Assembly (NCBI GenBank): GCA_046597375.1
Contig: JBKJKM010000174.1
Span: 15,677-79,676, forward strand
DNA: 64,000 bases
Origin: Acidimicrobiales bacterium
GTDB lineage: Bacteria > Actinomycetota > Acidimicrobiia > Acidimicrobiales > CADCTF01
Direction of reading: 5' to 3'
Under the pieces are notes generated by a model. That model was given only the letters and a program-made list of their open reading frames with translations. It was not told the DNA's origin and made no database searches. How positions within the stretch are numbered: position 1 is the stretch's first letter; the number at the start of each line of letters is the position of its first letter. The position numbers and the translations under genes are program-made. Of the stretch, positions 2,020-61,319 are shown one piece after another.

Positions 2020-2754
2020 TCAGATGTTTGCGAGGCGGCCGAGGCCGATGTCCTGCATGAAGCGCTGCATGGCGCCGGCGAGGGGGCCGAGGCGGTTGGT
2101 GAGCAACAGCACCCCGAAGACGACGAGGAACGATCCGGACACGAGGTTGAGCACTCGGAAGTGGCGCTTGACCCACCCGAAGACGCCGGTGAGACGCCCG
2201 AGGGCGAGGCCGGCGGCCACGAAGGGCACGCCCAGGCCGAGCGAGTAGGCGATGAGGAGGAAGATGCCGCGGGCCAACGTCGATTGCGTGGCCGCCGTGC
2301 TGAGCACCACCGACAGAATCGGTCCGATGCACGGCGTCCAGCCGAAGGCGAAGGCCATGCCCATGAGCGGCGGGGCAAAGGTGCCGAGCGACTGGGGCAG
2401 GACGTGGAACCGGCGCTCGCGCTGCATCGCTGCCGGCGCAACGGCGCCGGCGATGAAGAGACCCATGACGATGGTGAGGATGCCGGCGGCTTGGTTGAGC
2501 CCTTGTTGGTGACGGAGCAGCGACTGCCCGATGGCGCTGGCGCCGGCGCCGAGCAGGGTGAAGACCACGGTGAACCCGAGCACGAACAGCAGGGTGCTGC
2601 GAAGCAACCGCCGGGTCTCGTCGCCCCTCGCCGTCGAGAGCTCGGTGACGCTCACGCCGGACATCAGCGACAGGTAGCCGGGGACCAGCGGCAGCACGCA
2701 CGGGGAGAGGAACGACAGCATCCCGCCAGCGAAGGCAAGCAGAAAGATTCCCAT
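2020..2754 (-). CDS. ccdA: Cytochrome c biogenesis thiol-disulfide transporter CcdA (DsbD-family membrane protein)
   Basis: The N-terminus FLSPCVLPLVPGYLS and a second motif GWTPCIGP are the two conserved Cys motifs of CcdA. The protein is polytopic and hydrophobic, and GGAAAGAGG lies upstream of the ATG. Confidence 0.85.
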   Translation of the reverse strand: MGIFLLAFAGGMLSFLSPCVLPLVPGYLSLMSGVSVTELSTARGDETRRLLRSTLLFVLGFTVVFTLLGAGASAIGQSLLRHQQGLNQAAGILTIVMGLFIAGAVAPAAMQRERRFHVLPQSLGTFAPPLMGMAFAFGWTPCIGPILSVVLSTAATQSTLARGIFLLIAYSLGLGVPFVAAGLALGRLTGVFGWVKRHFRVLNLVSGSFLVVFGVLLLTNRLGPLAGAMQRFMQDIGLGRLANI

Positions 2755-2768
2755 CCTCTTTCCTACGG

Positions 2769-2815
2769 TTCTGGGTGGGTTGGTGTACCGATTCGGTACG
2801 CCAACCCGCCCAGAA
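2769..2815. terminator. 47-nt near-perfect inverted repeat (22-bp arms) between the enoyl-CoA hydratase stop and the ccdA start
   Basis: TTCTGGGTGGGTTGGTGTACCG-ATT-CGGTACGCCAACCCGCCCAGAA. The arms differ at only 2 positions (T versus C). There is no U-tract. Confidence 0.5.
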
Positions 2816-2833
2816 CGAGGAGGGAGGGCGGAA

Positions 2834-3559
2834 TCATCGGCCCTGGAAGTTCGGAGTGCGCTTCTCGGCGCGAGCTCGCTGACCCTCGGCCAGATCGTCG
2901 CTGGTCCAGGCGCGGTCGAAGGCGGCCGTGACCTCCGGGTCGTCGAGTGCAGGCTCGAGTCGGTTGAGCGCCAGCTTGTGGCCGGCGATGGTCAGGGGCG
3001 CCAGCCTCGAGATCTCCCCCGCCCAGGCCTGCGCACCCTCGAGGTCGCCGCCCCGGTTGGCCAGGCCGAGACGCAATGCCGTCGGCGCGTCGAGCTCCTC
3101 GCAAGCCAACAGCACGGCGCGGGCCGGACCGGGACCGGCCAGGAGGGCCAGACGCTGCGCCGTCCAGTGATCGGTCATCAGGCCGAGCTTGGCCGCCGGG
3201 ATGCCGAATCGGGCGTCGTCGGCCACCACCCGGAGGTCGCACGCGATGGCCAGCTGCGTGCCGGCGCCGAGGGCGGCTCCGTGCACGGCGGCGATGGTGA
3301 CGATCGGGACGTCCTTGAGGACGGCGAGCGTGCGGTAGAGGGTGGCCACGAAGCCGTCGGACTCCACACCGGACAGGTCGGCGCCCGAGCAGAAGTTCGT
3401 GCCCCGGCCCGTAAGGACCAGGGCGCGCGCACCAGCGTCGACGGCGTCGGCCACGGCGGTGGCGATGTCCTCGCAGGCCCGGGTGTCGACGGCGTTGCGC
3501 TTCTCGGGGCGAGCGAGGGTGACGACGGCGACCCGGTCGTGCAGCTCGAGTTCGATCAT
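2834..3559 (-). CDS. Enoyl-CoA hydratase/isomerase family protein
   Basis: MIELELHDRVAVVTLARPEKRNAVD...LTGRGTNFCSGADL...AAVHGAALGAGTQLAIACDLRV are classic crotonase-fold motifs. Confidence 0.85.
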   Translation of the reverse strand: MIELELHDRVAVVTLARPEKRNAVDTRACEDIATAVADAVDAGARALVLTGRGTNFCSGADLSGVESDGFVATLYRTLAVLKDVPIVTIAAVHGAALGAGTQLAIACDLRVVADDARFGIPAAKLGLMTDHWTAQRLALLAGPGPARAVLLACEELDAPTALRLGLANRGGDLEGAQAWAGEISRLAPLTIAGHKLALNRLEPALDDPEVTAAFDRAWTSDDLAEGQRARAEKRTPNFQGR

Positions 3560-5206: not shown

Positions 5207-6106
5207 TCAGTTCTGGAGGCTGAGGACCTCGGACGCCACCTCGCCGAGCTCGTCGTCCCACGACGCCGGCTCGCCGGCGGGCACGAGGACGAACTTGGAG
5301 AACCCGACCTCGCAGAAGCGCTCGAGGTGGGCGCGGAGCGCCGGAAGGCCGGCCGGCACCACGTCACCGGGATCGGCGTCGGGGTTGCGGGCCCGCAGCA
5401 CCGACGCCAACCGTTCCGGGAGCTCCGCGCTCCGCGTGTAGATGACGAGGGCTCCCCAGTGTTCGGCGTCGACCTCGCGACCGGCGGCCGAGGCCGCTTG
5501 CTCGACCACGGTCCGTCCGGCCGCCGCCTCGGCCGGCGACGAGAACGAAGGGAGCCAGCCGTCGCCCAGGCGGCCGACCCGGCGCAGCTCGCTCGGCGCC
5601 CGACCGCCCAGCCAGACCTCGAGGGGCGACTGCACCGGCTTGGGCCGAACGCCGATGCCTTGGTAGGAGAAGAACGGGCCCTCGTGGTCGACCGTGTCCT
5701 CGGTCCAGAAGCGCCGCAGCAGCGGGAGGGCCTCGTCGAAGCGCTTGGCCCGCTCCGTACGCTCGACGCCGAAGGCCTGTTGCTCGGCGCCATCGGCCAC
5801 GCCGAGGCCGAACGCCGGCAACAGCCGGCCATTGGAGAGGTGGTCGAGCGAGGCGAGTTCCTTGGCCAGCAGGACCGGGTTGCGTCCGGGGAGCACGAGG
5901 ACGGAGAAGCCGAGCTTGAGCTTCTTCGTGCGGCCCGCGGCGACGGACAAACCAACGATCGGGTCGACGGCTCCGCCGGTCACCCGTTCGCTCAACCACA
6001 GCGAGTCGAACCGGTTGGCCTCGAGACCGTCGACCAGCGCCGCGAAGCCGGCACCCCCAGCAGTGGAGGTGCCGGTACCCAGGCCGTAGCCGACGCGAAT
6101 CTTCAC
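5207..6106 (-). CDS. LLM-class (luciferase-like) F420-dependent oxidoreductase
   Basis: GTG 6104-6106 overlaps the stop of the upstream gene (GTGA). VKIRVGYGLG...FDSLWLSERV...LGFSVLVLPGRNPVLLAKELASLDHLSNGRLLPAFGLG matches the LLM family pattern. The 621-aa track ORF is an artefactual fusion. Confidence 0.8.
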   Translation of the reverse strand: MKIRVGYGLGTGTSTAGGAGFAALVDGLEANRFDSLWLSERVTGGAVDPIVGLSVAAGRTKKLKLGFSVLVLPGRNPVLLAKELASLDHLSNGRLLPAFGLGVADGAEQQAFGVERTERAKRFDEALPLLRRFWTEDTVDHEGPFFSYQGIGVRPKPVQSPLEVWLGGRAPSELRRVGRLGDGWLPSFSSPAEAAAGRTVVEQAASAAGREVDAEHWGALVIYTRSAELPERLASVLRARNPDADPGDVVPAGLPALRAHLERFCEVGFSKFVLVPAGEPASWDDELGEVASEVLSLQN

Positions 6107-7023
6107 GAGACCTTCAGTGTGCCCTCCATGTCCGGGTGGAGGCTGCAATAGAAGCGGTAGGCGCCGGCCTCGAGGTCGAATTCGGCACGACCCGCCTTCT
6201 GGCCCGGGACTTGCTCGGCCACCACGCCGTTGATGGTGAAATCGTGGTGTGCGACGTCGTCGTTCTCGACGAACACGGTGATGCGGCCGGCGTCGGCGTC
6301 GAGGGTCGAGGCGCTGAACTCGAAATTCTTCGCCTGCAGCGTCAGATCGCCGGGCATGCGGGTCGCTGATCCGGTCAGCGAGCCCGCCACGATGCCGACG
6401 ACCACCAGGACGGCGATGACGGCGCCGGCGACCTTCGGGGCCACGCCGGCCATTGGTCCCCCTTGGCGACGCAGGGCCCCGACCGTTGCCACGAGACCGA
6501 GGACGCTGACGACGAACAAGCCACCGAAGAGGATGAGCTCGAACGTGCTCTCTGCCCGGGTCAAGACGGTGAGGCCTCCAAACATGGCGACCATGGCGAA
6601 CAGGAGGAGGCTGACGATGCCGGCGTAGACCACGCCTCCCCGTCCCTCCGACCGGTGCAGCCAAACGACGCCGCCGGACACGATCACTCCGATCACGAGA
6701 GGCATGGGATCGAGACGCCCCTCGAAGAGGAGGGTGATGACGGCCATGAAGGCCGCCATGATCGCCTGTCCGACGGCTGCCCCCCGCAGGACGTCTCGCC
6801 ACGTCCTGTCCGTCGTCGGGGTGATCGGGCTCGTCGTGGTCGGGATCGGGGTTGTCGTGGTGCTGGTCGTGCGCACTGCCGCCTCCTGCGGGATGGTCTG
6901 ACCTCCCCAGCGTGCGCCGCCGACGCCGACCGGCGCAGGAGTGCCAGCCAGCGTTCCTGCTGGGGGTGCTAGCCCCACCCCCGCAGCCGGGCGGATGGGG
7001 GGGGTGCTCAGCGTCCGGTCCAC
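6103..7023 (-). CDS. Polytopic membrane protein with C-terminal cupredoxin (amicyanin-like type-1 copper) domain
   Basis: There are about 4 predicted TM helices, then FEFSASTLDADAGRITVFVENDDVAHHDFTI...YRFYCSLHPDMEGTLKVS. The H...C-x2-H-x2-M ligand spacing matches amicyanin (YHCTPHPFM). The start codon is uncertain because it overlaps the upstream gene by 16 nt. Confidence 0.7.
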   Translation of the reverse strand: MDRTLSTPPIRPAAGVGLAPPAGTLAGTPAPVGVGGARWGGQTIPQEAAVRTTSTTTTPIPTTTSPITPTTDRTWRDVLRGAAVGQAIMAAFMAVITLLFEGRLDPMPLVIGVIVSGGVVWLHRSEGRGGVVYAGIVSLLLFAMVAMFGGLTVLTRAESTFELILFGGLFVVSVLGLVATVGALRRQGGPMAGVAPKVAGAVIAVLVVVGIVAGSLTGSATRMPGDLTLQAKNFEFSASTLDADAGRITVFVENDDVAHHDFTINGVVAEQVPGQKAGRAEFDLEAGAYRFYCSLHPDMEGTLKVS

Positions 7024-7808
7024 TCCGGACGACGCTTTTCGGCGAAGGCGGCCAGGCCCTCCTTGGCGTCATTCGTGAGCGTGGTGAGCGTGAGCATCGG
7101 ATGGAGGTACTCGAGGGCGTCAGCGGCGGCCCGGTCCCAGACGGCGTAGAACGAGTCCCGTCCGAGCTTCACGATCGCCGGTGACTTGGTCACCAGTGCT
7201 CCTGCCAACTCGGCGACGGCTTCGTCGAGGCCGTCGACGGGGACGACCCGGTTGACGAACCCCACGCGCTCGGCTTCGGCGGCGCCGACACGGCGACCGG
7301 TGAGCATCAGCTCGAGCACCTTCTTCGGCGGCATCGAACGCACCAGCGGCACGGTGATCATGAACGGCCAGAGCCCCACGTCGATCTCGGGCGTCCCGAA
7401 CTGGGCATCGTCGGCAGCGACCACGAAGTCGCAGGCGAGGGCGAGGCCCATACCGCCGGCCAACGCGTAGCCCCGCACGCGGGCGATCGTCGGCTTGCCG
7501 AGCGACCATAGGTCGAGAAAGAGGCCGGCCAACCCGCCTCGACCCTCGTGGAGTTCGAGGAACCCCGTCGCCGATCCCGCCTCGGCCGTCGGGCCGGCCA
7601 TGCCATCGAGGTCGGCCCCTGCGCAGAACGCCCGATCCCCCGCTCCGGTGAGCACGACCACACGCACCGAGTCGTCGTCGCGCAAGGTCGCCAGCACGGA
7701 CCGGAGCTCCCCGATCACCGCCCACGACAGTGCGTTGCGCCGCTCCGGGCGGTTGATGGTCACCGTCGCCACGCCTCCTGCGGTCGTGCAGAGGACCTCG
7801 TCGGTCAT
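7008..7808 (-). CDS. Enoyl-CoA hydratase/isomerase family protein
   Basis: VATVTINRPERRNAL...VLTGAGDRAFCAGADL...ARVRGYALAGGMGLALACDF is a crotonase fold. Confidence 0.85.
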   Translation of the reverse strand: MTDEVLCTTAGGVATVTINRPERRNALSWAVIGELRSVLATLRDDDSVRVVVLTGAGDRAFCAGADLDGMAGPTAEAGSATGFLELHEGRGGLAGLFLDLWSLGKPTIARVRGYALAGGMGLALACDFVVAADDAQFGTPEIDVGLWPFMITVPLVRSMPPKKVLELMLTGRRVGAAEAERVGFVNRVVPVDGLDEAVAELAGALVTKSPAIVKLGRDSFYAVWDRAAADALEYLHPMLTLTTLTNDAKEGLAAFAEKRRPEWTGR

Positions 7809-20497: not shown

Positions 20498-22048
20498 ATG
20501 ACCACGACCGAACAACCTCCCGCCGGAGGAGATGCGGCCGGCACCACCGTCGAGGAGAAGCGGTGGTGGATCCTCGGCGTGTTGTGTCTCAGCCTCGTCA
20601 TCGTCATCGTCGGAAACACCGTGCTGAACGTGGCCCTTCCGACCCTCGTGCGGGAGCTGCAGGCGACGCAGACCGAGCTTCAGTGGATCGTCGACGCCTA
20701 CGCGCTCGTCTTCGCCGGACTGCTGCTCACGGCCGGGGCCCTGGGTGACCGCTTCGGGCGAAAGGGTGCCCTCACCGTCGGCCTCGTCATCTTCGGCGGC
20801 GCCTCAGCCGCCAGCGCCTTCGTCGACAGCCCCGCCGGTCTGATCGCCGGCCGGGCCGTGATGGGCCTCGGCGCGGCGTTCGTCATGCCGGCCACACTGT
20901 CGATCCTCACCACGGTGTTCCCGCCACGCGAACGGGGTCGCGCCATCGCCATCTGGGCCGGCCTGGCCGGCGCCGGGGCCGCCATCGGTCCCATAGGCAG
21001 CGGCTTCCTCCTCGAACACTTCTGGTGGGGTTCGGTGTTCCTGATGAACCTCCCGATCATCGCCATCGCGTTGATTGCCGGACTGATCCTGGTTCCGTCG
21101 TCGAAGGACCCGGACGAGGCACCTCTCGATCCGATCGGAGCGGGGCTCTCCATCGCCGGCCTGGCCTCGCTGCTCTACGCGATCATCGAGGCACCGAGCC
21201 ACGGCTGGACGGCGCCCGAGACACTGGCGGCGTTCGCCGCAGCCGCCGCCCTTCTCAGCACGTTCGCTTGGTGGGAGCTGCGTTCGGCAGCGCCGATGCT
21301 GCAGCTCCGTTGGTTCAAGAACCCTGGTTTCAGCACGGCGAGCGGGGCCATCACCCTCGTGTTCTTCGCCATGTTCGGCACGTTCTTCCTCTTCAGCCAG
21401 TACCTCCAGCTCGTGCTTGGCTACGGCACCCTCGAGGCGGGCTTGCGGATGCTGCCGATGGCTGTCGTGATGATGATCGCGGCCCCCAATAGCGCACGGC
21501 TGACCGAGCGCTTCGGACCCAAGCGGGTCGTGGCGGGCGGGCTGGCCACGGTCGGGCTCGGCCTCACGCTCATGTCCTTCGCCACGGTGGACTCCGGCTA
21601 CCTCCCGGTGATGATCGCCCTGATGGTGATGTCGGCTGGCATGGGCTCGTCGATGGCGCCGGCGACGGCCACGATCATGACGTCGCTTCCGATGGGGAAG
21701 GCCGGCGTGGGATCGGCGGTCAACGACACGACCCGCGAGTTGGGCGGAGCCCTCGGCGTGGCCGTACTCGGCAGCCTGGCGGCGTCGGCCTACTCGCGAG
21801 GGGTCGGCGACCTCGCCGCCTCTCTCCCGGCCGAAGCGGCGGCGGTGGCTCGCACCTCACTCGGTGCCGCCATCGAGGTAGGCCGCCAGATCGGCGGGCC
21901 GGCCGGCGAAGTCGTCGTGCGCACCGCCCAGGTCGCCTACGTCGACGGGATGTCGAACGGGTTACGGGTCGGCGCGATGGTCGTGTTCATCGCCGCCGCC
22001 CTCGTCTTCCGGTTCCTCCCGGCGGTGCCGGCGGCGCACGACGCATGA
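20498..22048 (+). CDS. MFS transporter, DHA2 (EmrB/QacA, 14-TMS) type
   Basis: LNVALPTLVRELQAT...LQWIVDAYALVFAGLLLTAGALGDRFGRKG is DHA2 motif A/D2. The length and hydrophobicity fit 14 TMS. Confidence 0.85.
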   Translation: MTTTEQPPAGGDAAGTTVEEKRWWILGVLCLSLVIVIVGNTVLNVALPTLVRELQATQTELQWIVDAYALVFAGLLLTAGALGDRFGRKGALTVGLVIFGGASAASAFVDSPAGLIAGRAVMGLGAAFVMPATLSILTTVFPPRERGRAIAIWAGLAGAGAAIGPIGSGFLLEHFWWGSVFLMNLPIIAIALIAGLILVPSSKDPDEAPLDPIGAGLSIAGLASLLYAIIEAPSHGWTAPETLAAFAAAAALLSTFAWWELRSAAPMLQLRWFKNPGFSTASGAITLVFFAMFGTFFLFSQYLQLVLGYGTLEAGLRMLPMAVVMMIAAPNSARLTERFGPKRVVAGGLATVGLGLTLMSFATVDSGYLPVMIALMVMSAGMGSSMAPATATIMTSLPMGKAGVGSAVNDTTRELGGALGVAVLGSLAASAYSRGVGDLAASLPAEAAAVARTSLGAAIEVGRQIGGPAGEVVVRTAQVAYVDGMSNGLRVGAMVVFIAAALVFRFLPAVPAAHDA

Positions 22049-24307: not shown

Positions 24308-24576
24308 TGTGCACGTACCTGACCCTCTCGACCGACGTGGCCGGGAGCGGGCTGCAGGGAGGCGACGACTGGTTCGGCGTCGAACGCGCCGTCGTGTACT
24401 TCGACCACCCACAGGACGCGTCGCTCGAGCATGCGCTGTGCGTCGATGTGCGCGGTCGTGACGTGGGCCAGCGCGTCGCCGTCGAGCTCGATGCCTCCTC
24501 GGCTCGTCGACTGGCCGAGACGATCCTCGCCGTCCTCGACGACGCCGAGACCCGCACGCTCGTCGACCCCTCATGA
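24307..24576 (+). CDS. Small conserved hypothetical protein (DUF6295-like, tentative)
   Basis: ATG 24307 overlaps the upstream stop by 1 nt (TGATG). The sequence is MCTYLTLSTDVAGSGLQGGDDWFGVERAVVYFDHPQDASLEHALCVDV. The family name is from memory only. The stop overlaps the next start (ATGA). Confidence 0.5.
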   Translation: MCTYLTLSTDVAGSGLQGGDDWFGVERAVVYFDHPQDASLEHALCVDVRGRDVGQRVAVELDASSARRLAETILAVLDDAETRTLVDPS

Positions 24577-26840
24577 AACTGCAGGGCACGGCGGTCACGA
24601 GGACCGAGGACCACCACCTGCTGATCGGGGACACAACGTTCGTCGGCAATGTCGACCTCCCGGGCGCGTTGCACGTGGCCTATGTGACCTCGACGGTCGC
24701 CCACGCTCGACTCACCACGGTCGACGTGACGGCCGCCCGTGCTGCGCCCGGGGTGGTGTTGGTGCTGACGGCCGCCGATCACGGCCTCGCTCCGCTGACA
24801 CCGATGGTGGCGGGCGCGCCGGCGGCCATGACGCGCCCGTTGCTGGCCGACGGCATCGTGCGCTACGTCGGCGAGCCGGTCGTGGCCATCGCCGCCGAGA
24901 CGGCGGCGCAGGCGGCCGACGCCGTCGACCTCGTCGAAATCGACTACCTCCCCCTCCCTGTGGCCGTTCGGCCCGAGCACGCACTGGCCGAGGGCGCACC
25001 ACTGCTCTTCCCCGACGCCGGAACGAACGTCGTCGCCCAAGGCAGGGGGGGCGCCGCCGATGAGCTGCCGTTCGCCGAGTGCGACGTGGTCGTCGAGGGC
25101 ACCTTCCTCAACCAACGCGTGGCCCCGTGCCCCATCGAGACCCGCGTCGCCGCATCGACCTGGACCGACGACGGCCGGCTTCTGCACTACGCCTCCTGCC
25201 AGGGCGCCCATCCCATCCGCACGCAGCTCGCCGCCATCCACGGACTCGATGCCTCGCAGATCCGCGTCGTGACCTCCGATGTCGGTGGCAGCTTCGGGGC
25301 CAAGGGACGGGCCTATCCCGAAGAACTGCTTCTGCCCGTGATCGCCAAGCGCGCCGGCCGACCGGCTCGCTGGACGCCCGACCGCTCCGATGACATGGTC
25401 GGTCTCGGCCACTCGCGCGCACAACGGCAATCGGTGCGCATGGGAGGGCGTCGAGACGGCACGATCACCTGCCTCGAGGTGCACGTGCTGGCCGACTGTG
25501 GTGCCTATCCGGGCATCGCTCCGAACCTGGCCAACAACACGGGGAACCTGCTCCCCGGTCCGTATCGCATCGCCAACGTTCGATGGACCAACGAGTGCGT
25601 GGTCACGAACACCACACCGATCACCGCCTACCGCGGTGCCGGCCGGCCCGAGGCGGCGGCGCTCGTCGACCGGGCCGTCGACCTCTTCGCCGCCGAGCTC
25701 GGACTCGACCCCGTCGATGTCCGACGGACGAACCTCCTGCGACCGGACGAGTTCCCGTGGAAGAGCCCGACAGGACTCACCTACGACAGCGGCACCTACG
25801 AGCGGGCCCTCGACAAGGCGCTGACCACGGTCGGGTACGACGAGCTCCGGAAGGACCAGGCCGCCCGACGGGAACGTGGCGACACCACCGTGCTCGGTAT
25901 CGGCGTGTCGGTCTTCATCGACCGCACGGCCGGCGTGCCGGGGAGCGAGTACGGCGCAGTCGAGCTGCGAGGTGACGGCACCGTGCTCGTCAAGACCGGA
26001 TCGTCGCCCTACGGCCAGGGCCACTACACGGCGTGGGCCATGCTCGTAGCCGATCGGACCGGACTTCCCATGGAGCAGATCACGGTCGTGCACGGAGACA
26101 CCGACGTCGTGCCCCGCGGCGGCGTCACCGGTGGCTCGCGTTCGGCGCAGAAGGCCGGCACGGCCGTCGCCCAGGCGACCGACGCGTTGGTCGACGAGGC
26201 CCGCCGCATCGCCGCCGACCACCTCGAGGCGTCCCCGGACGACATCGTGCTCGACACAACGACCGGACGCTTCCACGTGACCGGCTCCCCCGGGGCGACG
26301 ACGATCGGATGGGCCGAGGTCCCCGCCGACGTCGCCGCCATACCCGAGCGCGACGCGCTCCGCTGCGAAGCCGACTTCGAAGGCGAGGGCCCGACCTTTC
26401 CGTTCGGCGCGTACGTCGCCGTCGTCGAGATCGACACCGAGACCGGACGCCTCACCCTCGAACGGATCGTCACCGTCGACGACGCCGGCACGATCCTCAA
26501 CCCGCTCCTCGCCCTCGGGCAGGTGCACGGGGGGCTGGGCCAGGGCATCGCCCAGGCCATGTTCGAGGAGTTCGTCTATGACGACGACGGCAACCCGCTC
26601 ACGTCGACGTTCGCCGACTACGGGCTGCCGACGGCAGCCGACCTCCCCTCGTTCGATTGCGAACTCACCGAGACGCCCTCACCCAACAACCCGCTCGGGT
26701 TCAAGGGCATCGCCGAATCGGGCACCATCGGTGCTCCGCCTGCCCTCCAGAACGCCGCCGTCGATGCGCTGGCCCACCTCGGCGTCCGCCACCTCGACCT
26801 GCCCATCACCCCCGAGCGCATCTGGCGGGCGCTGCGCTGA
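24573..26840 (+). CDS. Xanthine dehydrogenase/CoxL-family molybdopterin-binding large subunit (form II-like, AYRGAGR)
   Basis: The N-terminus is TRTEDHHLLIGDTTFVGNV. The active-site loop is TTPITAYRGAGRPEAA, not the VAYRCSFR of true CO dehydrogenases. DDAGTILNPLLALGQVHGG is also present. Confidence 0.9.
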   Translation: MKLQGTAVTRTEDHHLLIGDTTFVGNVDLPGALHVAYVTSTVAHARLTTVDVTAARAAPGVVLVLTAADHGLAPLTPMVAGAPAAMTRPLLADGIVRYVGEPVVAIAAETAAQAADAVDLVEIDYLPLPVAVRPEHALAEGAPLLFPDAGTNVVAQGRGGAADELPFAECDVVVEGTFLNQRVAPCPIETRVAASTWTDDGRLLHYASCQGAHPIRTQLAAIHGLDASQIRVVTSDVGGSFGAKGRAYPEELLLPVIAKRAGRPARWTPDRSDDMVGLGHSRAQRQSVRMGGRRDGTITCLEVHVLADCGAYPGIAPNLANNTGNLLPGPYRIANVRWTNECVVTNTTPITAYRGAGRPEAAALVDRAVDLFAAELGLDPVDVRRTNLLRPDEFPWKSPTGLTYDSGTYERALDKALTTVGYDELRKDQAARRERGDTTVLGIGVSVFIDRTAGVPGSEYGAVELRGDGTVLVKTGSSPYGQGHYTAWAMLVADRTGLPMEQITVVHGDTDVVPRGGVTGGSRSAQKAGTAVAQATDALVDEARRIAADHLEASPDDIVLDTTTGRFHVTGSPGATTIGWAEVPADVAAIPERDALRCEADFEGEGPTFPFGAYVAVVEIDTETGRLTLERIVTVDDAGTILNPLLALGQVHGGLGQGIAQAMFEEFVYDDDGNPLTSTFADYGLPTAADLPSFDCELTETPSPNNPLGFKGIAESGTIGAPPALQNAAVDALAHLGVRHLDLPITPERIWRALR

Positions 26841-26858
26841 CCCAACAAAGATGGGCGA

Positions 26859-27740
26859 ATGCCCACGTGCAAGTCCAACGGGATCGAGCTGTATTACGAG
26901 ACGCACGGGCAGGAGGACGACCCGGCACTGTTGCTCGTGATGGGTCTGGGCGCCCAGATGATCGCCTGGGACGAGGAGTTCTGCGACACCCTCGTCGATC
27001 GCGGGTTCTTCGTCATCCGTTTCGACAATCGGGATGTCGGCCTCTCGTCGAAGATCGAGGGCGGCGGAGGGAGCTTCATCGAGTCCTTCGCCAAAGCCCA
27101 GCAGGGGGAAGCCATTCCGGCGCCCTACCTCCTCACCGACATGGCCGCCGACGCGATCGGTCTTCTCGACCACCTCGGCATCGAGCGCGCCCACGTCGTG
27201 GGCGCGTCGATGGGGGGGATGATCGCCCAGACGATCGCCATCGAGCACCCCGAGCGGGTGCGCTCCTTGACATCGATCATGTCGACGACCGGCGAACCCG
27301 ACGTCGGCCAGCCAACGCCGGAGGCCATCGCCCGCCTCGTCGTTGCTCCGCCGGCCGATCGGGCCGCGGCCATCGAGGCATCCGTCGCCAGCTCCAAGGT
27401 GATCGGAAGCCCCGACCACTTCGACGAAGATCGGGCGCGACGGAAGGCGGCCGAGACGTACGATCGGGCCTTCACCCCGGCCGGAACCGCCCGCCAAATC
27501 CTGGCGATCATGGCCTCGGGCTCACGCGCTGACGCATTGGCCCGCCTCGAGGTTCCGGCCGTCGTGATCCACGGCGAGGTCGATCCCCTCGTCACGCCGA
27601 CCGGCGGCGCCCGCACCGCCGAACTCATCCCCGGCGCCGAGCACGTGGTGATCGAGGGAATGGGCCACGACCTACCCCGAGCGCTGTGGCCGCAGGTCGT
27701 CGAGGCGATCACGGCGGTCGTTCGGCGCGCGCCGGACTGA
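26859..27740 (+). CDS. Alpha/beta-fold hydrolase
   Basis: LLLVMGLG...HVVGASMGGMIAQ (GxSxG nucleophile elbow)...VIHGEVDPLV...GMGHDLP. Confidence 0.85.
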   Translation: MPTCKSNGIELYYETHGQEDDPALLLVMGLGAQMIAWDEEFCDTLVDRGFFVIRFDNRDVGLSSKIEGGGGSFIESFAKAQQGEAIPAPYLLTDMAADAIGLLDHLGIERAHVVGASMGGMIAQTIAIEHPERVRSLTSIMSTTGEPDVGQPTPEAIARLVVAPPADRAAAIEASVASSKVIGSPDHFDEDRARRKAAETYDRAFTPAGTARQILAIMASGSRADALARLEVPAVVIHGEVDPLVTPTGGARTAELIPGAEHVVIEGMGHDLPRALWPQVVEAITAVVRRAPD

Positions 27741-43714: not shown

Positions 43715-45928
43715 TCAACCTGCGACTCGCCGCCGCCCGAAACGGGCCAGACGGAGACTGTTGGTGACGACCGAGACGCTCGAGAAGCCCATTGCGGCAC
43801 CGGCCAGGATCGGGTTGAGGAGCCCGAGCGCAGCCACTGGGATGAGCACCACGTTGTAGCCGAAGGCCCACGCGAGGTTCTGCAGGATCGTGCGGAACGT
43901 TCGTCTCGAAAGCTGAATGGCCGTGGCGACCCCGGCGAGGTCGGCCGAGAGCAGGGTGATGTCGGACGACTGGATGGCGACGTCGGTCCCGGTGCCGATG
44001 GCGATGCCGAGATCGGCCTGAACGAGGGCGGGAGCATCGTTCACGCCGTCGCCGACCATCGCAACGACCTTTCCCTCGTGCTGCAGGCGGCGCACCTCGT
44101 CGACCTTGTCGGCGGGAAGCACCTCGGCCAACACGCGACCGATGCCCACCTGGGCGGCCACGGCTTCGGCGGTACGGCGGTTGTCGCCGGTGATCATCAC
44201 GACGTCGATGCCCATCGCCCGGAGCCTGGCCACGGCGCCAGGAGCGTCGTCGCGCATCGTGTCGGCAACGGCGAGCACGCCGCGGACCTGGCCGTCCCAA
44301 CCGGCGAAGACGGCCGTCTTTCCTTCGCCCTCGAGCTCGGCCGCCGCCGCTTCGAGCTCGGCCGGCAGGACAAGCCCGGCTTCGGCCATCAGCTTTCGCC
44401 GCCCGACATGGACGTCGAGGCCGTCGATCGTGGCCCGGACCCCGTGACCGGCGACCGACGTGAAGTCGACTGCCGTCGGCAGATTCGGGGTGCGAAGGCG
44501 GGCGCCGTCGACGACGGCCCGTCCGACGGGATGCTCCGAGCCTTGTTCGGCGGAACCCGCTCTGGCCAACAGTGCGGCCTCGTCCGTACCCGCCCCTGGG
44601 TGGACGTCGGTGAGCGACATCTGCCCCTTGGTGAGCGTTCCGGTCTTGTCGAAGACGACGGTGTCGACCTTCTTCGAACGCTCGAGGACTTCGCCTCCCT
44701 TGATGAGCACGCCCATGGCCGCGCCGCGACCAGTCCCCACCAGGATGGCCGTCGGCGTCGCAAGGCCGAGAGCGCACGGGCAAGCGATGATGAGTACGGC
44801 CACGGCGCTGATCAAGCCTCGGGTTGCGTCACCTGACAGCGCCCACCCGAGGAACGTGACCGCCGCCAACACGAGGACAACCGGGACGAAGACGCCGGCG
44901 ATCCGGTCGGCGAGTTGCTGCACGGGGGCCTTGGTCCCCTGGGCCTCCTCGACCAGCTTCACGATCTGGGCGAGCGCCGTGTCGGTGCCGACGGCGGTCG
45001 CCTCGATCGTCAAGACGCCTTGGGCGTTGATGGTCGCACCGGCGACCTTGTCACCCGGAACCTTGTCGACCGGGACGGACTCCCCCGTCAACATCGACTC
45101 ATCCACGGCCGATGAACCGTCGACGACCCGACCGTCGACCGGGACCTTTTCGCCCGGACGGACACGCAGTCGATCTCCGACGCGTACATCCTCGACCGGG
45201 ACCATCCTCTCCTCCCCGTCGACGACGGTACGAGCCTCCTTGGCGCCGAGTTCGAGGAGCGAGCGGATGGCGCTCGATGCGCGGCCCTTGGCTCTCGCCT
45301 CGAAATACCGGCCGAGCAACAAGAAGGCGATGATCAGCGCCGCGGTGTCGAAGTAGTGGTCGGAGTGACGGTGGCTGAACACGACCTGATAGGTCGAGAA
45401 CGCGAAGGCGGCCAGCGTGCCGATGGCGATGAGGGTGTCCATGTTCGCCTGGCGAACTCGGGCCCTCGCCACGGCCTGGCGGAGAAACGGCCACCCGGCC
45501 CAGAACTGGATGGGCGTGGTCAGGACGAGGGCGCTGAAACGGGCCCACGGCTCCATCATCCAGAACAGCGACAAGACGAGGACGACCAGGCCGAGGGGCC
45601 AAGCAACCAGTACCCGACGGAGCCACATGGCTTGCAAGGCGGCCTCGCCGGCGCCGGCGTCGTCTTCGGACTCGGGACTGACGGGGGCCAGCCCGTACCC
45701 GGCCTTCCCCACTGCGGCGATGAGCTGTTGGGTCGACACCGCACCGGGATCGAAGGCGACGATGGCCTTCGTGGTCGCAAGGTTGACTGCCACCTCGGTG
45801 ACGCCGTCTTGGCGAGTGAGAACCTTCTCCACCCGGGCCGCGCACGACCCGCAGGTCATGCCGGTGATGGTGAACTCCATCTCGGTGCCGGCCTCAACTC
45901 CGGTGCGTCCCACGTTCGTCGCGGTCAT
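43715..45928 (-). CDS. copA: Copper-translocating P1B-type ATPase
   Basis: N-terminal [17 protein letters not shown] motif ([12 protein letters not shown]), [17 protein letters not shown], and HP in SEHPVGRA. Confidence 0.95.
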
Positions 45929-46239
45929 GCTTGCTCCTCGCTCGACAGTGCCAGCTCAGGACCGGGCGCAGTAACGGTCCGGTCGTACCGCAACGCCTCC
46001 ATCAACTCCGCCACGATCTCGTCGGTGCGCCCGGCGACCATCGCGGCGGCGACGCACGTCTCGAGGTGGTTCTGCAGGACGATGCGGCTGGCCCGCTCCA
46101 ACGATCCCTGCACCGCCGAGAGCTGCTTCATGAGGTCGGGGCAGTAGGTGTCGTCCTCCACCATCCGAATGACGGCGTCGAGGTGACCCCTCGCCGTCTT
46201 CAACCGAAGCAACACCGACCGCTCGTGGACTTCCTTCAT
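45925..46239 (-). CDS. csoR: CsoR-family copper-sensing transcriptional repressor
   Basis: [51 protein letters not shown] shows the C-H-C ligand pattern of CsoR. It overlaps the copA start. Confidence 0.85.
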
Positions 46240-60744: not shown

Positions 60745-60839
60745 ACGCTACGGAGACGGGATCCAAGCCACCAACGAATTCTTGATCGACCCACGAGCTG
60801 CACAGGACGGCCCCCGCTCCTCACCGGTAGGTTACGAGG

Positions 60840-61319
60840 ATGTCGACCCACGAGCCCATCGAGACCGGGATATCGGCACCGAGCTTCGCGCTATCGGACG
60901 CAGGCGGCACGTCGCTCCAGGTGCCCACTGGCGAACCGACCGTGCTGGTCTTCTACCGGGGCTTCTGGTGACCGTTTTGCCGAAACGAGTTGGCCGGTCT
61001 GGCCAGCCTCAGCGACGAGATCACCGCAGCCGGCGGACGGATCATCGCCGTATCCCCTGACCAGCCCGAGCAGAACGGCGAACTGATCGCCAAGCTTGGC
61101 CTCGACTTCCCGGTCCTGAGCGACCCCGAAATGGAGGTCACCGACCTCTACGGGGTACGACACAAGGCAGCCATGGGACCGAAGGACCTGCCCTATCCGA
61201 CGACATTCGTCATCGATGCAGACGGGCTGCTGCGTCGTCGGTTCGACAATGCCACCTACAAAGACCGGCCCGAGCCGCGCGTCGTCACCGACGCTCTCCT
61301 CAAGGTCATCAGGGCCTAG
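60840..61319 (+). CDS. Peroxiredoxin-like (AhpC/TSA, PRX-like) protein with in-frame TGA at the catalytic Cys position: probable selenoprotein (159 aa, U44)
   Basis: The sequence from ATG 60840 reads ...TVLVFYRGFW-TGA(60969-60971)-PFCRNELAGL... and continues in the same frame into track ORF 60990..61319. The family motif is FxRGxWCPxC, so TGA replaces the peroxidatic Cys. A SECIS-like hairpin follows. Confidence 0.65.
60987..61010 (+). promoter_or_regulatory. Candidate bacterial SECIS hairpin
   Basis: It begins 15 nt after the TGA. The upper stem is UGGCC/GGCCA (60991-60995 pairing with 61001-61005). The apical loop is GGUCU (60996-61000). The lower stem is G87-C10, A88-U09, G89-C08 and U90-G06, with C07 bulged. 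E. coli fdhF SECIS has the same GGUCU loop (GGUUGCAGGUCUGCACC, from memory). Confidence 0.55.

What the first reader, a model, noticed from the sequence alone, without database searches (positions are those of the whole stretch)
60840..61319. Peroxiredoxin-like gene with TGA exactly at the catalytic Cys codon, followed by an fdhF-type hairpin: probable unannotated selenoprotein
The ORF track shows only the C-terminal two thirds of a redoxin (60990..61319, beginning at an internal TTG). Reading upstream in the same frame, ATG 60840 opens MSTHEPIETGISAPSFALSDAGGTSLQVPTGEPTVLVFYRGFW. Then comes TGA (60969-60971), then PFCRNELAGLASL... AhpC/TSA PRX-like proteins have F-x-R-G-x-W-C-P-x-C at this point, so the stop codon replaces the peroxidatic cysteine and gives a U-P-F-C redox motif. 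Third-position G/C bias is coding-like on both sides of the TGA. Fifteen nt after the TGA a hairpin starts (60987-61010). Its 5-bp G/C upper stem closes a GGUCU loop, the same loop sequence I recall for the E. coli fdhF SECIS, and the lower stem carries a single-nucleotide bulge. Prx-like Sec/Cys pairs are known in bacterial selenoproteomes, but standard gene callers would split or miss this gene. Sec use is uncommon in this kind of high-GC actinobacterial genome.
Basis: partly seen in the sequence, partly recalled or inferred. Interest (0 to 1): 0.8.

Follow-up and report, generated by a model that had tools for sequence, protein, structure and literature searches.

The report
Unannotated Prx-like selenoprotein gene (UxxC)
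This is a real but mis-annotated gene for a small thioredoxin-fold redox protein whose in-frame TGA very probably encodes selenocysteine; it belongs to a selenoprotein family predicted since 2004, so it is an annotation fix and not a new kind of biology.

Summary
ATG 60840 to TAG 61319 (+) is one 159-codon AhpC/TSA-fold gene with a single in-frame TGA (60969-60971), followed by a hairpin at 60987-61010 with a GGUCU loop.

It is not a pseudogene. Four further relatives keep the TGA: three in the same clade (91% nt, 88% and 63% aa identity) and L004 at 38% aa identity. Both halves are under purifying selection (dN/dS 0.2-0.5, dS about 1). The stem changes by compensatory substitutions.

About 85 species-representative genomes from several phyla carry the same FYRGxW-U-P-x-C gene with a hairpin at the same distance. 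Two synonymous third-codon positions covary. Cys-containing homologues lack the hairpin.

The family is already known: "Prx-like thiol:disulfide oxidoreductase" (PF00578, UxxC).

It does not replace the peroxidatic Cys. Three of the four Prx catalytic residues are absent, and a ResA-type P-T-T-F cis-Pro motif is present.

The source is an uncultured Acidimicrobiia-like actinobacterial MAG. Its Sec machinery could not be checked. NCBI holds only the truncated 109-aa product.

Verdict: new member of a known kind, modest interest.

The parts
60840..61319 (+). Full selenoprotein CDS: 159 codons plus TAG, with Sec at codon 44. Thioredoxin-fold Prx-like thiol:disulfide oxidoreductase.
   Evidence: Translation. 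Pfam AhpC-TSA E=1e-27 spanning the TGA. Orthologues L133, L002 and L003 are colinear from the start codon to the stop. dN/dS is 0.34-0.51 upstream of the TGA and 0.21-0.25 downstream.
60969..60971 (+). In-frame TGA = Sec44, the first residue of the U-P-F-C redox motif.
   Evidence: TGA is conserved in L001, L133, L002, L003, L004 and about 85 genome loci. Cys homologues have TGC/TGT here. It aligns with the N-terminal Cys of the ResA CxxC and with the Thr of the BCP TxxC.
60978..60980 (+). TGC = Cys47, the resolving partner of Sec44. This is the position of the Prx peroxidatic Cys.
   Evidence: Invariant in alignment A2. Aligned to the Cys of TPGC in 5enu and to the second Cys of ResA.
60987..61010 (+). 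SECIS-type hairpin: lower stem GAG/CUC with bulged C61007, upper stem UUGGCC/GGCCAG, apical loop GGUCU (60996-61000).
   Evidence: Folds. Compensatory changes in L003 (GCUCUCC/GGAGAGC). Family covariation: 89% of cells paired against 12-49% when slid, with covariation between two wobble positions. A covariance model built without the window clade scores 52.7 bits, E=1e-19, at 60969-61016. Same GGUCUG as the E. coli fdhF SECIS.
61197..61208 (+). P120-T-T-F, a thioredoxin-type cis-Pro motif. It occupies the position of the catalytic Arg of peroxiredoxins.
   Evidence: Aligned to PLPTTF of ResA and to E-R-S-T-F of BCP 5enu. Invariant in the clade.
60990..61319 (+). Truncated 109-aa ORF (TTG start), the only product on record for this gene (P0001, sources NCBI and Logan).
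60828..60833 (+). TAGGTT, a possible -10 element 6 nt upstream of the start codon. This suggests a leaderless mRNA (inference only).
   Evidence: TAGGTT is conserved in L002 and L133, and L003 has TAGCGT 7 nt upstream, although the other upstream DNA is only 47% identical between window and L002. The sigma-70 consensus scan found nothing.

Best explanation
The gene at 60840-61319 encodes a cytoplasmic (no signal peptide), 159-residue thioredoxin-fold protein of the 'Prx-like thiol:disulfide oxidoreductase' selenoprotein family.

How UGA is read. During translation, UGA at codon 44 is read as selenocysteine. The hairpin that starts 15 nt after the UGA presents a GGUCU apical loop, which is the SECIS. 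It would recruit SelB bound to GTP and Sec-tRNA(Sec) to the ribosome, as in E. coli fdhF.

How the protein works. The product has a U44-P-F-C47 redox centre. By homology to ResA/TlpA this sits at the N-terminus of the first helix, opposite the cis-Pro loop (P120-T-T-F). Sec44 is the exposed nucleophile. It attacks an oxidised substrate, either a disulfide or possibly a peroxide or sulfenic acid in the way the GPx UxxT motif does. Cys47 then resolves the intermediate to a selenenylsulfide, which a thioredoxin-type reductant reduces again. My estimate is about 55% for a disulfide or mixed-disulfide reductase role and about 35% for a peroxide-reducing role.

Shown here: one gene, TGA and hairpin conserved under selection, membership of the UxxC Prx-like family, and loss of three of the four Prx catalytic residues. 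Inferred: actual Sec insertion (the machinery was not seen), the substrate, the reductant and the leaderless transcript.
For: 1. TGA is kept in every member of the window clade, recovered from four other sequencing runs: L001 (identical), L133 (91% nt), L002 (88% aa) and L003 (63% aa).
2. It is also kept in L004 at 38% aa identity. There the JGI gene call has W at that position, and the locus does not translate to the recorded protein under table 11.
3. Purifying selection acts on both sides of the TGA. Window vs L003: dS 0.97 and dN/dS 0.34 upstream; dS 1.25 and dN/dS 0.23 downstream. Flanking DNA is 32-47% identical against 88% in the CDS.
4. The L003 stem differs by two double compensatory changes, with amino-acid changes A->S and A->E, and keeps the same loop.
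5. The pattern scan of species-representative genomes gave 101 hits against roughly 9 expected by my own estimate. About 85 are FYRGxW-U-P-x-C genes in Acidobacteriota, Chloroflexota, Myxococcota, deltaproteobacteria, Binatia, Verrucomicrobiales and Nitriliruptorales.
6. 75 of 87 distinct sequences have a contiguous stem of at least 5 bp next to the loop.
7. The pair between two synonymous third positions takes GC 7, CG 6, AU 3, GU 2, UG 2 and other 2. The covariation score is 0.323 against 0.173 for shuffles (0 of 500 reach it). Slid controls give 12-49% paired against 89% observed.
8. Cys forms lack the structure. Mean z is +0.05 against -0.87 for Sec forms, Mann-Whitney p=3.5e-4. None of the 17 Cys forms has G-L/GGUCUG at that site.
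9. A covariance model built without the window clade finds the site at 52.7 bits, E=1e-19. The next hit scores 13.9 bits.
10. TGA is the normal stop codon in this genome: 13 of 15 Pfam-supported genes end in TGA.
11. The family is described in the literature: PF00578, UxxC (PMC1088965, PMC2398784, PMC9312934, PMC13188914).
12. Active-site alignment to solved ResA and BCP structures.
Against: 1. No tRNA-Sec was found in the window. None of about 50 window ORFs scanned matches selA, selB or selD. The rest of the source genome could not be reached.
2. The hairpin alone is not more stable than shuffles (z=-0.28). It is also not more stable than synonymous recodings of the same peptide (p=0.08-0.30).
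3. No Rfam SECIS model matches. Bacterial SECIS elements are poorly represented in Rfam.
4. Most family members used for the covariation count were found with a DNA pattern that fixed GGTCTG and the spacing. Only the stem positions are free of that ascertainment. The three loop-proximal pairs were also used to choose the rows of A3.
5. No experimental evidence exists for Sec insertion or for the function of any member. The reviews list the family as 'predicted with high confidence'.
Confidence: 0.88

Rival explanations
1. Pseudogene. A TGC-to-TGA nonsense mutation inactivated an ordinary CxxC Prx-like gene, and the hairpin is a by-product of the ELAGLAS peptide in a high-GC genome.
For: The hairpin is not significantly more stable than synonymous recodings of the same peptide (p=0.08-0.30). 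No Sec machinery was seen in the window.
Against: TGA is retained across dS of about 1 in four further assemblies, with dN/dS 0.2-0.5 on both sides and no other stop or frameshift. The stem in L003 shows compensatory changes. About 85 other genomes have the same arrangement. No TGC-containing close relative was found: the nearest Cys forms are 42% identical or less.
Confidence: 0.03
2. Recoding without selenocysteine. UGA is read through by a near-cognate tRNA (Trp or Cys) or another mechanism, with the hairpin as a stimulator, in a lineage that has lost or never had SelB and tRNA-Sec.
For: The Sec machinery is unverified for this genome. The gene is not syntenic in the nearest relatives (L131, L132), so it may have arrived by transfer into a genome of unknown Sec status.
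Against: The element has the same loop hexamer as the SelB-binding fdhF SECIS. It is shared with lineages that the literature lists as Sec users (deltaproteobacteria, Chloroflexi, Acidobacteria; PMC1794560). Long-term retention of TGA instead of TGC or TGG is hard to explain without a benefit specific to Sec. Sec machinery is documented in class Acidimicrobiia (bioRxiv 10.64898/2026.04.03.716425).
Confidence: 0.05
3. Two independent products: a 43-aa peptide, and a 109-aa protein started at the internal TTG 60990, as currently annotated.
For: Gene callers produce exactly this.
Against: The 109-aa piece would lack the CxxC centre and the first beta-alpha unit of the thioredoxin fold. The Pfam domain spans residues 12-133, across the TGA. 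The called internal start differs between relatives: TTG here, and a different position giving 92 aa in L003. The upstream 43 codons are conserved in the same frame.
Confidence: 0.02
4. It is a true peroxiredoxin in which Sec is the peroxidatic residue.
For: Pfam AhpC-TSA is the best domain hit. BCP-type peroxiredoxins are the best PDB sequence hits (5enu E=2.5e-11).
Against: In that same alignment Sec44 matches the Thr, and Cys47 matches the peroxidatic Cys. The Prx Pro corresponds to R40 and the Prx Arg to P120. Sec-peroxiredoxins are TxxU (PMC1088965, PMC2398784). NCBIfam PrxU scores 26 bits against a cut-off of 270.
Confidence: 0.1

Closest known systems
Prx-like thiol:disulfide oxidoreductase selenoprotein family. 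Defined as PF00578 with UxxC/UxxU, with WP_010940744.1 as the example accession in the review tables; Geobacter sulfurreducens is among the listed carriers. Called 'Prx-like 1' in the GOS study.
   Same: Same Pfam domain, the same UxxC motif at the same position, a SECIS hairpin directly downstream with G in the apical loop, and Cys-containing homologues with CxxC (PMC1088965, PMC2398784, PMC13188914).
   Different: The window clade is 45% identical or less to the Sec forms found in species-representative genomes. It comes from an Acidimicrobiia-like actinobacterial MAG. It has no signal peptide or N-terminal extension. I did not align it directly to the Geobacter reference protein.
E. coli fdhF SECIS
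   Same: A stem-loop just downstream of UGA, inside the coding region, with the identical GGUCUG hexamer (encoding Gly-Leu in both genes) in and next to the apical loop.
   Different: The loop is GGUC closed by A-U at +22 in fdhF. Here it is GGUCU closed by C-G at +28. The bulge is in a different place. Binding to SelB was not tested.
ResA/TlpA/CcmG thiol-disulfide oxidoreductases (PDB 1st9, 3c71, 4nmu)
   Same: W-C-P-x-C aligned to W-U-P-F-C, and the P-T-T-F cis-Pro motif aligned. E=1e-9 to 1e-8.
   Different: Those proteins are extracytoplasmic, membrane-anchored and contain Cys. The window protein has no signal sequence. NCBIfam ResA scores 52 bits against a cut-off of 170.
BCP/PrxQ peroxiredoxins (PDB 5enu, 2cx3) and Sec-peroxiredoxin PrxU (TxxU)
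   Same: Overall AhpC/TSA fold and the FY..G/D..C framework. Best PDB sequence hit at E=2.5e-11.
   Different: Three of the four Prx catalytic residues (Pro, Thr, Arg) are replaced by R40, U44 and P120. Sec sits three residues before the peroxidatic position.

Membership tests
Prx-like thiol:disulfide oxidoreductase selenoproteins (PF00578, UxxC) | AhpC/TSA (PF00578) domain | tested here: met
   E=1e-27, 97 bits against a cut-off of 26, residues 12-133.
Prx-like thiol:disulfide oxidoreductase selenoproteins (PF00578, UxxC) | In-frame UGA as the first residue of a thioredoxin-like UxxC motif. Cys homologues have CxxC, and the motif is not TxxU. | tested here: met
   W-U-P-F-C here. Cys homologues have W-C-P-[YF]-C. 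Alignment to ResA and BCP.
Prx-like thiol:disulfide oxidoreductase selenoproteins (PF00578, UxxC) | Sequence similarity to other Sec-containing members | tested here: met
   38-45% identity, E=1e-33 to 1e-42, to about 85 UxxC genes in other phyla. Not compared directly with the Geobacter reference WP_010940744.1.
Bacterial SECIS element | Stem-loop immediately downstream of the UGA within the coding region, with a small apical loop containing G | tested here: met
   Hairpin at 60987-61010 with loop GGUCU. The criterion is as described in PMC1088965.
Bacterial SECIS element | Structure conserved by covariation, beyond what the encoded protein requires | tested here: met
   Compensatory changes in L003. 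Covariation between two wobble positions, and slid and shuffled controls. Absent in Cys forms. Caveat: the single-sequence synonymous-recoding test is not significant.
Bacterial SECIS element | Binding by SelB and Sec insertion | not testable with these tools
   Needs biochemistry or proteomics.
Sec-decoding organism | selA, selB, selC (tRNA-Sec) and selD present in the genome | tested here: inconclusive
   None in the 64-kb window. The genome is not among the species representatives and its contig could not be retrieved. There is precedent in the same class (bioRxiv 10.64898/2026.04.03.716425).
Peroxiredoxins proper (Prx, BCP, AhpC) | Catalytic Pro-x3-Thr-x2-Cys plus a conserved Arg | tested here: not met
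   Pro corresponds to R40, Thr to U44 and Arg to P120. Only the Cys (C47) is retained. NCBIfam BCP scores 51.5 against 140, PrxQ 28 against 260 and AhpC 20 against 272.
ResA/TlpA/DsbE thiol-disulfide oxidoreductases | W-C-x-x-C, a cis-Pro loop, and a membrane anchor or signal peptide (the anchor criterion rests on general knowledge of the family) | tested here: not met
   The motifs align. The protein starts MSTHEPIETG with no hydrophobic N-terminus. NCBIfam scores are far below the cut-offs.

The most novel reading that the evidence does not exclude
The source lineage lacks a canonical SelB/tRNA-Sec system, and the conserved UGA-plus-hairpin module is decoded another way: SECIS-like stimulated read-through, or insertion of a different residue. 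That would make this a transferred recoding cassette working outside the Sec pathway.

A milder version is much more likely (about 0.5). In that version the gene marks a previously undocumented Sec-decoding trait in soil Acidimicrobiales, acquired together with its SECIS by horizontal transfer.
Probability: 0.04. Interest if true: 0.75.

Novelty: new member of a known kind. Interest (0 to 1): 0.3.

Why it matters
**Annotation.** The public record holds only a 109-aa fragment that lacks the redox centre (P0001). No NCBIfam model reaches its cut-off. As a result this gene, and by implication its whole clade, is invisible to automated selenoproteome counts.

**Biology.** It implies that an uncultured, soil-type Acidimicrobiia-like actinobacterium decodes UGA as Sec, and it adds a divergent actinobacterial branch to an abundant family that has never been characterised experimentally.

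**SECIS constraint on the protein.** The family data show how a coding-region SECIS constrains the protein. Gly-Leu, encoded as GGU-CUG, is present in all five protein-ascertained members of the FYRGxW-U-P-x-C type (window, L133, L002, L003, L004) and in none of the 17 Cys forms. In the pattern-derived members it was fixed by the search pattern.

None of this is new in principle.

Tried and rejected
- **Rfam.** Searches at gathering and at E<=10 gave no SECIS hit. The only match was a chance sRNA hit at E=4.6 on the other strand.
- **First genome scan.** The protein-based scan of genome contigs found no relative, so the source genome is not a species representative.
- **Source contig.** Retrieving the NCBI contig through the aconitase P0024 failed because it is not on record. 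Cluster look-up gave no accession or organism name.
- **tRNA-Sec.** None was found in the window or in 95 related loci.
- **Sec machinery in the window.** Pfam survey of about 50 window ORFs found no SelA, SelB, SelD or formate dehydrogenase. One further batch failed on a frame error and was not repeated.
- **Synteny.** The nearest aconitase relatives (78-79% identity, L131 and L132) have no Prx-like gene next to the aconitase.
- **Synonymous-recoding null for hairpin stability.** Not significant (p=0.08-0.30). I report this as a weakness of the single-sequence argument.
- **Structure prediction.** The active-site analysis therefore rests on sequence alignment to solved structures.
- **My own error.** An off-by-one in the L003 start coordinate made the L003 comparisons meaningless. 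It was corrected.
- **Altered genetic code.** Rejected, because 13 of 15 confident genes end in TGA.
- **Second candidate TGA at 26838.** This is the stop of the Mo-hydroxylase gene, directly followed in frame by the next gene.

Full report
**Observation.** The + strand from ATG 60840 to TAG 61319 reads as one 159-codon frame with a single stop, TGA at 60969-60971. The mechanical ORF list splits it into a 43-aa ORF (60840..60971) and a 109-aa ORF that starts at TTG 60990. With Cys at the TGA position the protein matches Pfam AhpC-TSA at E=1e-27 over residues 12-133, so the domain runs across the stop. GC3 is 0.85 before the TGA and 0.80 after it. A scan of all six frames of the window found only one other TGA with coding-like sequence on both sides, at 26838. 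That one is the stop of a molybdopterin hydroxylase gene followed in frame by the next gene. Its upper stem is UUGGCC/GGCCAG, its loop is GGUCU, and C61007 is bulged. On its own the hairpin is not unusual: z=-0.28 against dinucleotide shuffles and p=0.08 against synonymous recodings of the same peptide using this genome's codon usage.

**Is it a pseudogene?** No. A search of 5.8 billion protein clusters returned three close homologues, at 99%, 90% and 64% identity. All three are truncated gene calls covering only the C-terminal 56-69% of the query. Their DNA (L001, L002, L003), and a further member L133, all read TGG TGA CCG TT[T/C] TGC in frame, with an intact N-terminal part. Between the window and L003, dS is about 1.0-1.25 and dN/dS is 0.34 upstream of the TGA and 0.23 downstream. 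Between the window and L002 the CDS is 88% identical, while the 100 nt on either side are 47% and 32% identical. So both halves are translated in one frame, and the TGA has been kept over a long time. TGA is the usual stop codon in this genome (13 of 15 Pfam-supported genes), so an altered genetic code is not the explanation.

**The hairpin in relatives.** In L003 the stem is GCUCUCC/GGAGAGC in place of GUUGGCC/GGCCAGC. That is two double compensatory changes, accompanied by amino-acid changes (A->S, A->E), with the same GGUCU loop and spacing. A protein hit at 38% identity (P0007, JGI) has W at the critical position, and its locus does not translate to the recorded protein under table 11. The DNA (L004) has TGA followed by CUGGCC-GGUCU-GGCCGC.

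**The wider family.** I wrote a DNA pattern for W-TGA-P-[FY]-C, then 15 nt, then GGTCTG, and scanned one genome per species. There were 101 hits against roughly 9 expected by my own estimate from pattern degeneracy. About 85 of them are FYRGxW-U-P-x-C genes, found in Acidobacteriota, Chloroflexota (Tepidiformaceae, Dehalococcoidia), Myxococcota, deltaproteobacteria, Binatia, Verrucomicrobiales and one Nitriliruptorales. The pattern fixed the loop but left the stems free, and 75 of 87 distinct sequences have at least 5 contiguous pairs next to the loop. These fall into three registers: CUGCA/UGCAG, NNGCC/GGCNN and CUGCGC/GCGCAG.

For the 22 sequences in the window's register, 89% of cells pair, against 12-49% when the partners are slid. 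The covariation score is 0.323 against 0.173 for shuffles (0 of 500 reach it). The pair that joins two synonymous third-codon positions takes GC 7, CG 6, AU 3, GU 2, UG 2 and other 2. The three loop-proximal pairs were used to pick these rows, whereas the outer four were not.

**Sec forms against Cys forms.** A protein-based metagenome scan gave 19 Cys forms and three Sec forms of a different branch (T-U-G-M-C), which have their own hairpin at the same distance. After removing duplicate sequences, 17 distinct Cys forms were compared. They show no excess structure downstream (mean z +0.05, against -0.87 for Sec forms; Mann-Whitney p=3.5e-4), and none has G-L/GGUCUG at that site.

**Covariance model and fdhF.** A covariance model built without the window clade hits 60969-61016 at 52.7 bits (E=1e-19), and the next hit in the window scores 13.9 bits. 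That score reflects the conserved codons as well as the structure. The real E. coli fdhF sequence has UGA at codon 140 followed by GGUUGCA-GGUC-UGCACC. It therefore carries the same GGUCUG hexamer, at +22 instead of +28.

**What kind of protein.** The best solved relatives by sequence are BCP-type peroxiredoxins (5enu, E=2.5e-11) and ResA (E=1e-9). Against BCP, FYRGFW-U-PF-C aligns with FYPKDN-T-PG-C. So Sec44 sits on the conserved Thr, Cys47 on the peroxidatic Cys, R40 on the Prx Pro, and P120 (in P-Y-P-T-T-F) on the catalytic Arg (E-R-S-T-F). Against ResA, both Cys of W-C-P-H-C align, and so does P-L-P-T-T-F. The protein therefore keeps one of the four Prx catalytic residues, and it has the full thioredoxin-type CxxC plus cis-Pro arrangement.

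This matches the literature. [quoted passage not shown] The GOS study lists "Prx-like 1, pfam00578, UxxC" with 225 Sec sequences and 2,740 Cys homologues (PMC2398784). Later surveys and reviews list "Prx-like thiol:disulfide oxidoreductase, PF00578, UxxC/UxxU" as predicted with high confidence (PMC5029168, PMC9312934, PMC13188914). No NCBIfam model reaches its cut-off: SelL-related redox protein 51.8 against 120, ResA 52 against 170, BCP 51.5 against 140. That fits the truncated public annotation (P0001, sources NCBI and Logan).

**Source organism and Sec machinery.** The adjacent aconitase has its own record (P0024, NCBI, contig of 80,808 bp). Its closest homologues, at 78-79% identity, come from unnamed soil metagenome contigs. 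Every homologue that carries an organism name, at about 64-68% identity, is from an Acidimicrobiales or Acidimicrobiaceae MAG. The window is 68.5% G+C. The genome is not among the species representatives, and the contig could not be fetched.

The window has no tRNA, and none of about 50 ORFs scanned matches SelA, SelB, SelD or a formate dehydrogenase. There is precedent. All 84 complete Actinomarina genomes (class Acidimicrobiia) are reported to carry selA, selB, selC and selD (bioRxiv 10.64898/2026.04.03.716425), and Actinobacteria were counted among the selenoprotein-rich phyla in 2006 (PMC1794560). The gene is not syntenic in the nearest relatives (L131 and L132, soil metagenomes). Its closest Sec-form relatives in other phyla share the same loop and spacing. 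I read this as transfer of the gene together with its SECIS, which is an inference.

**Mechanism (inferred).** SelB carrying Sec-tRNA(Sec) is recruited by the hairpin and inserts Sec at codon 44. The U44-x-x-C47 centre cycles between selenol/thiol and selenenylsulfide, with Sec as the attacking residue. I favour a disulfide-reductase role over a peroxidase role. The substrate and the reductant are unknown.

**Verdict.** It is a new member of a known kind. Its value lies mainly in annotation, and in flagging Sec use in an uncultured actinobacterial lineage.

Noticed in passing
window 60828-60833; L002 1977-1982; L003 about 1819-1824: A TAGGTT (TAGCGT in L003) hexamer sits 6-7 nt upstream of the start codon in all clade members, although the rest of the upstream DNA has diverged. 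L133 uses GTG at the same start position. This suggests a -10 element and a leaderless mRNA.
   Followed up: partly
L004 1103-1621 (JGI 3300056996, P0007): The database protein has Trp at the Sec position, and the locus does not translate to it under table 11. The DNA has TGA there. Sec forms can therefore hide in protein databases as apparent W-P-x-C proteins.
   Followed up: yes
L116, L117, L118 (JGI metagenomes): A different Sec branch of the same fold, FYMVGT-U-[GA]-M-C, with an N-terminal membrane anchor and its own hairpin GCAGCU-CGNGA-AGCUGC starting about 17 nt after the UGA. It was found only through the C-terminal peptide pattern.
   Followed up: partly
L044 about 7112, L056 about 6388 (+ strand); L094 about 882 from the 5' end of the minus strand (Cloacimonadales MAG chromosomes): Large secreted proteins (300 to more than 580 aa after the motif) that begin with a signal peptide followed by ...EVFTExW-U-P-Y-C-PRARTGLF. 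The TGA is followed by GAACA-GGUC-UGUUC, an fdhF-like hairpin. This is probably a separate selenoprotein family with an N-terminal thioredoxin-like motif.
   Followed up: no
L007, L039, L078, L086, L098, L101: Pattern hits that are not Prx genes. On the opposite strand they read ATGAAAGTTTATTACGACAAAGATGCAGACCT... (MKVYYDKDADL...), which I recognise from memory as the N-terminus of ketol-acid reductoisomerase (ilvC). They are chance matches inside a conserved gene. There was no Rfam hit.
   Followed up: partly
L011, L032, L034, L037, L077 (Pyrinomonadaceae): These Sec forms (…WUPFCARQLAGLRSF…) lack the stem adjacent to GGUCU that the other members have. A possible alternative is GCAG/CUGC closing a 9-nt loop UUGGCCGGU. 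Not analysed further.
   Followed up: no
Family-wide, position U+9/U+10: Gly-Leu (GGU CUG) follows the Sec codon at a fixed distance in all five protein-ascertained members of the FYRGxW-U-P-x-C type. Cys forms have A/K/S/Q followed by V/L/F there. This is an example of a coding-region SECIS constraining the protein sequence. E. coli FdhF also has A-G-L encoded by GCA GGU CUG.
   Followed up: partly
window 26838-26843: The TGA stop of the molybdopterin hydroxylase gene (24462-26840) is followed immediately, in the same frame, by the alpha/beta-hydrolase ORF (26841-27740). It superficially resembles a read-through site but is an ordinary gene junction.
   Followed up: yes
window 21873-21899 (-): Second-best hit of the family covariance model (13.9 bits, rough E=7e-4). 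It matches the hairpin part only, with no UGA context, and lies antisense to the MFS transporter gene. Probably a chance GC-rich hairpin.
   Followed up: no
window 2020-2991 (-), 6103-7068 (-), 43715-45955 (-): Other redox or metal genes in the window: a DsbD/CcdA-type transmembrane thiol-disulfide transporter, a cupredoxin-domain protein and an HMA-domain P-type ATPase. No link to the selenoprotein gene was examined.
   Followed up: no
L131, L132 (ENA forest and farmland soil metagenomes): The closest aconitase relatives (78-79% identity) come from soil metagenomes and have a MarR-family gene upstream of the aconitase. They have no Prx-like gene nearby, so the selenoprotein gene is patchily distributed in this lineage.
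   Followed up: yes
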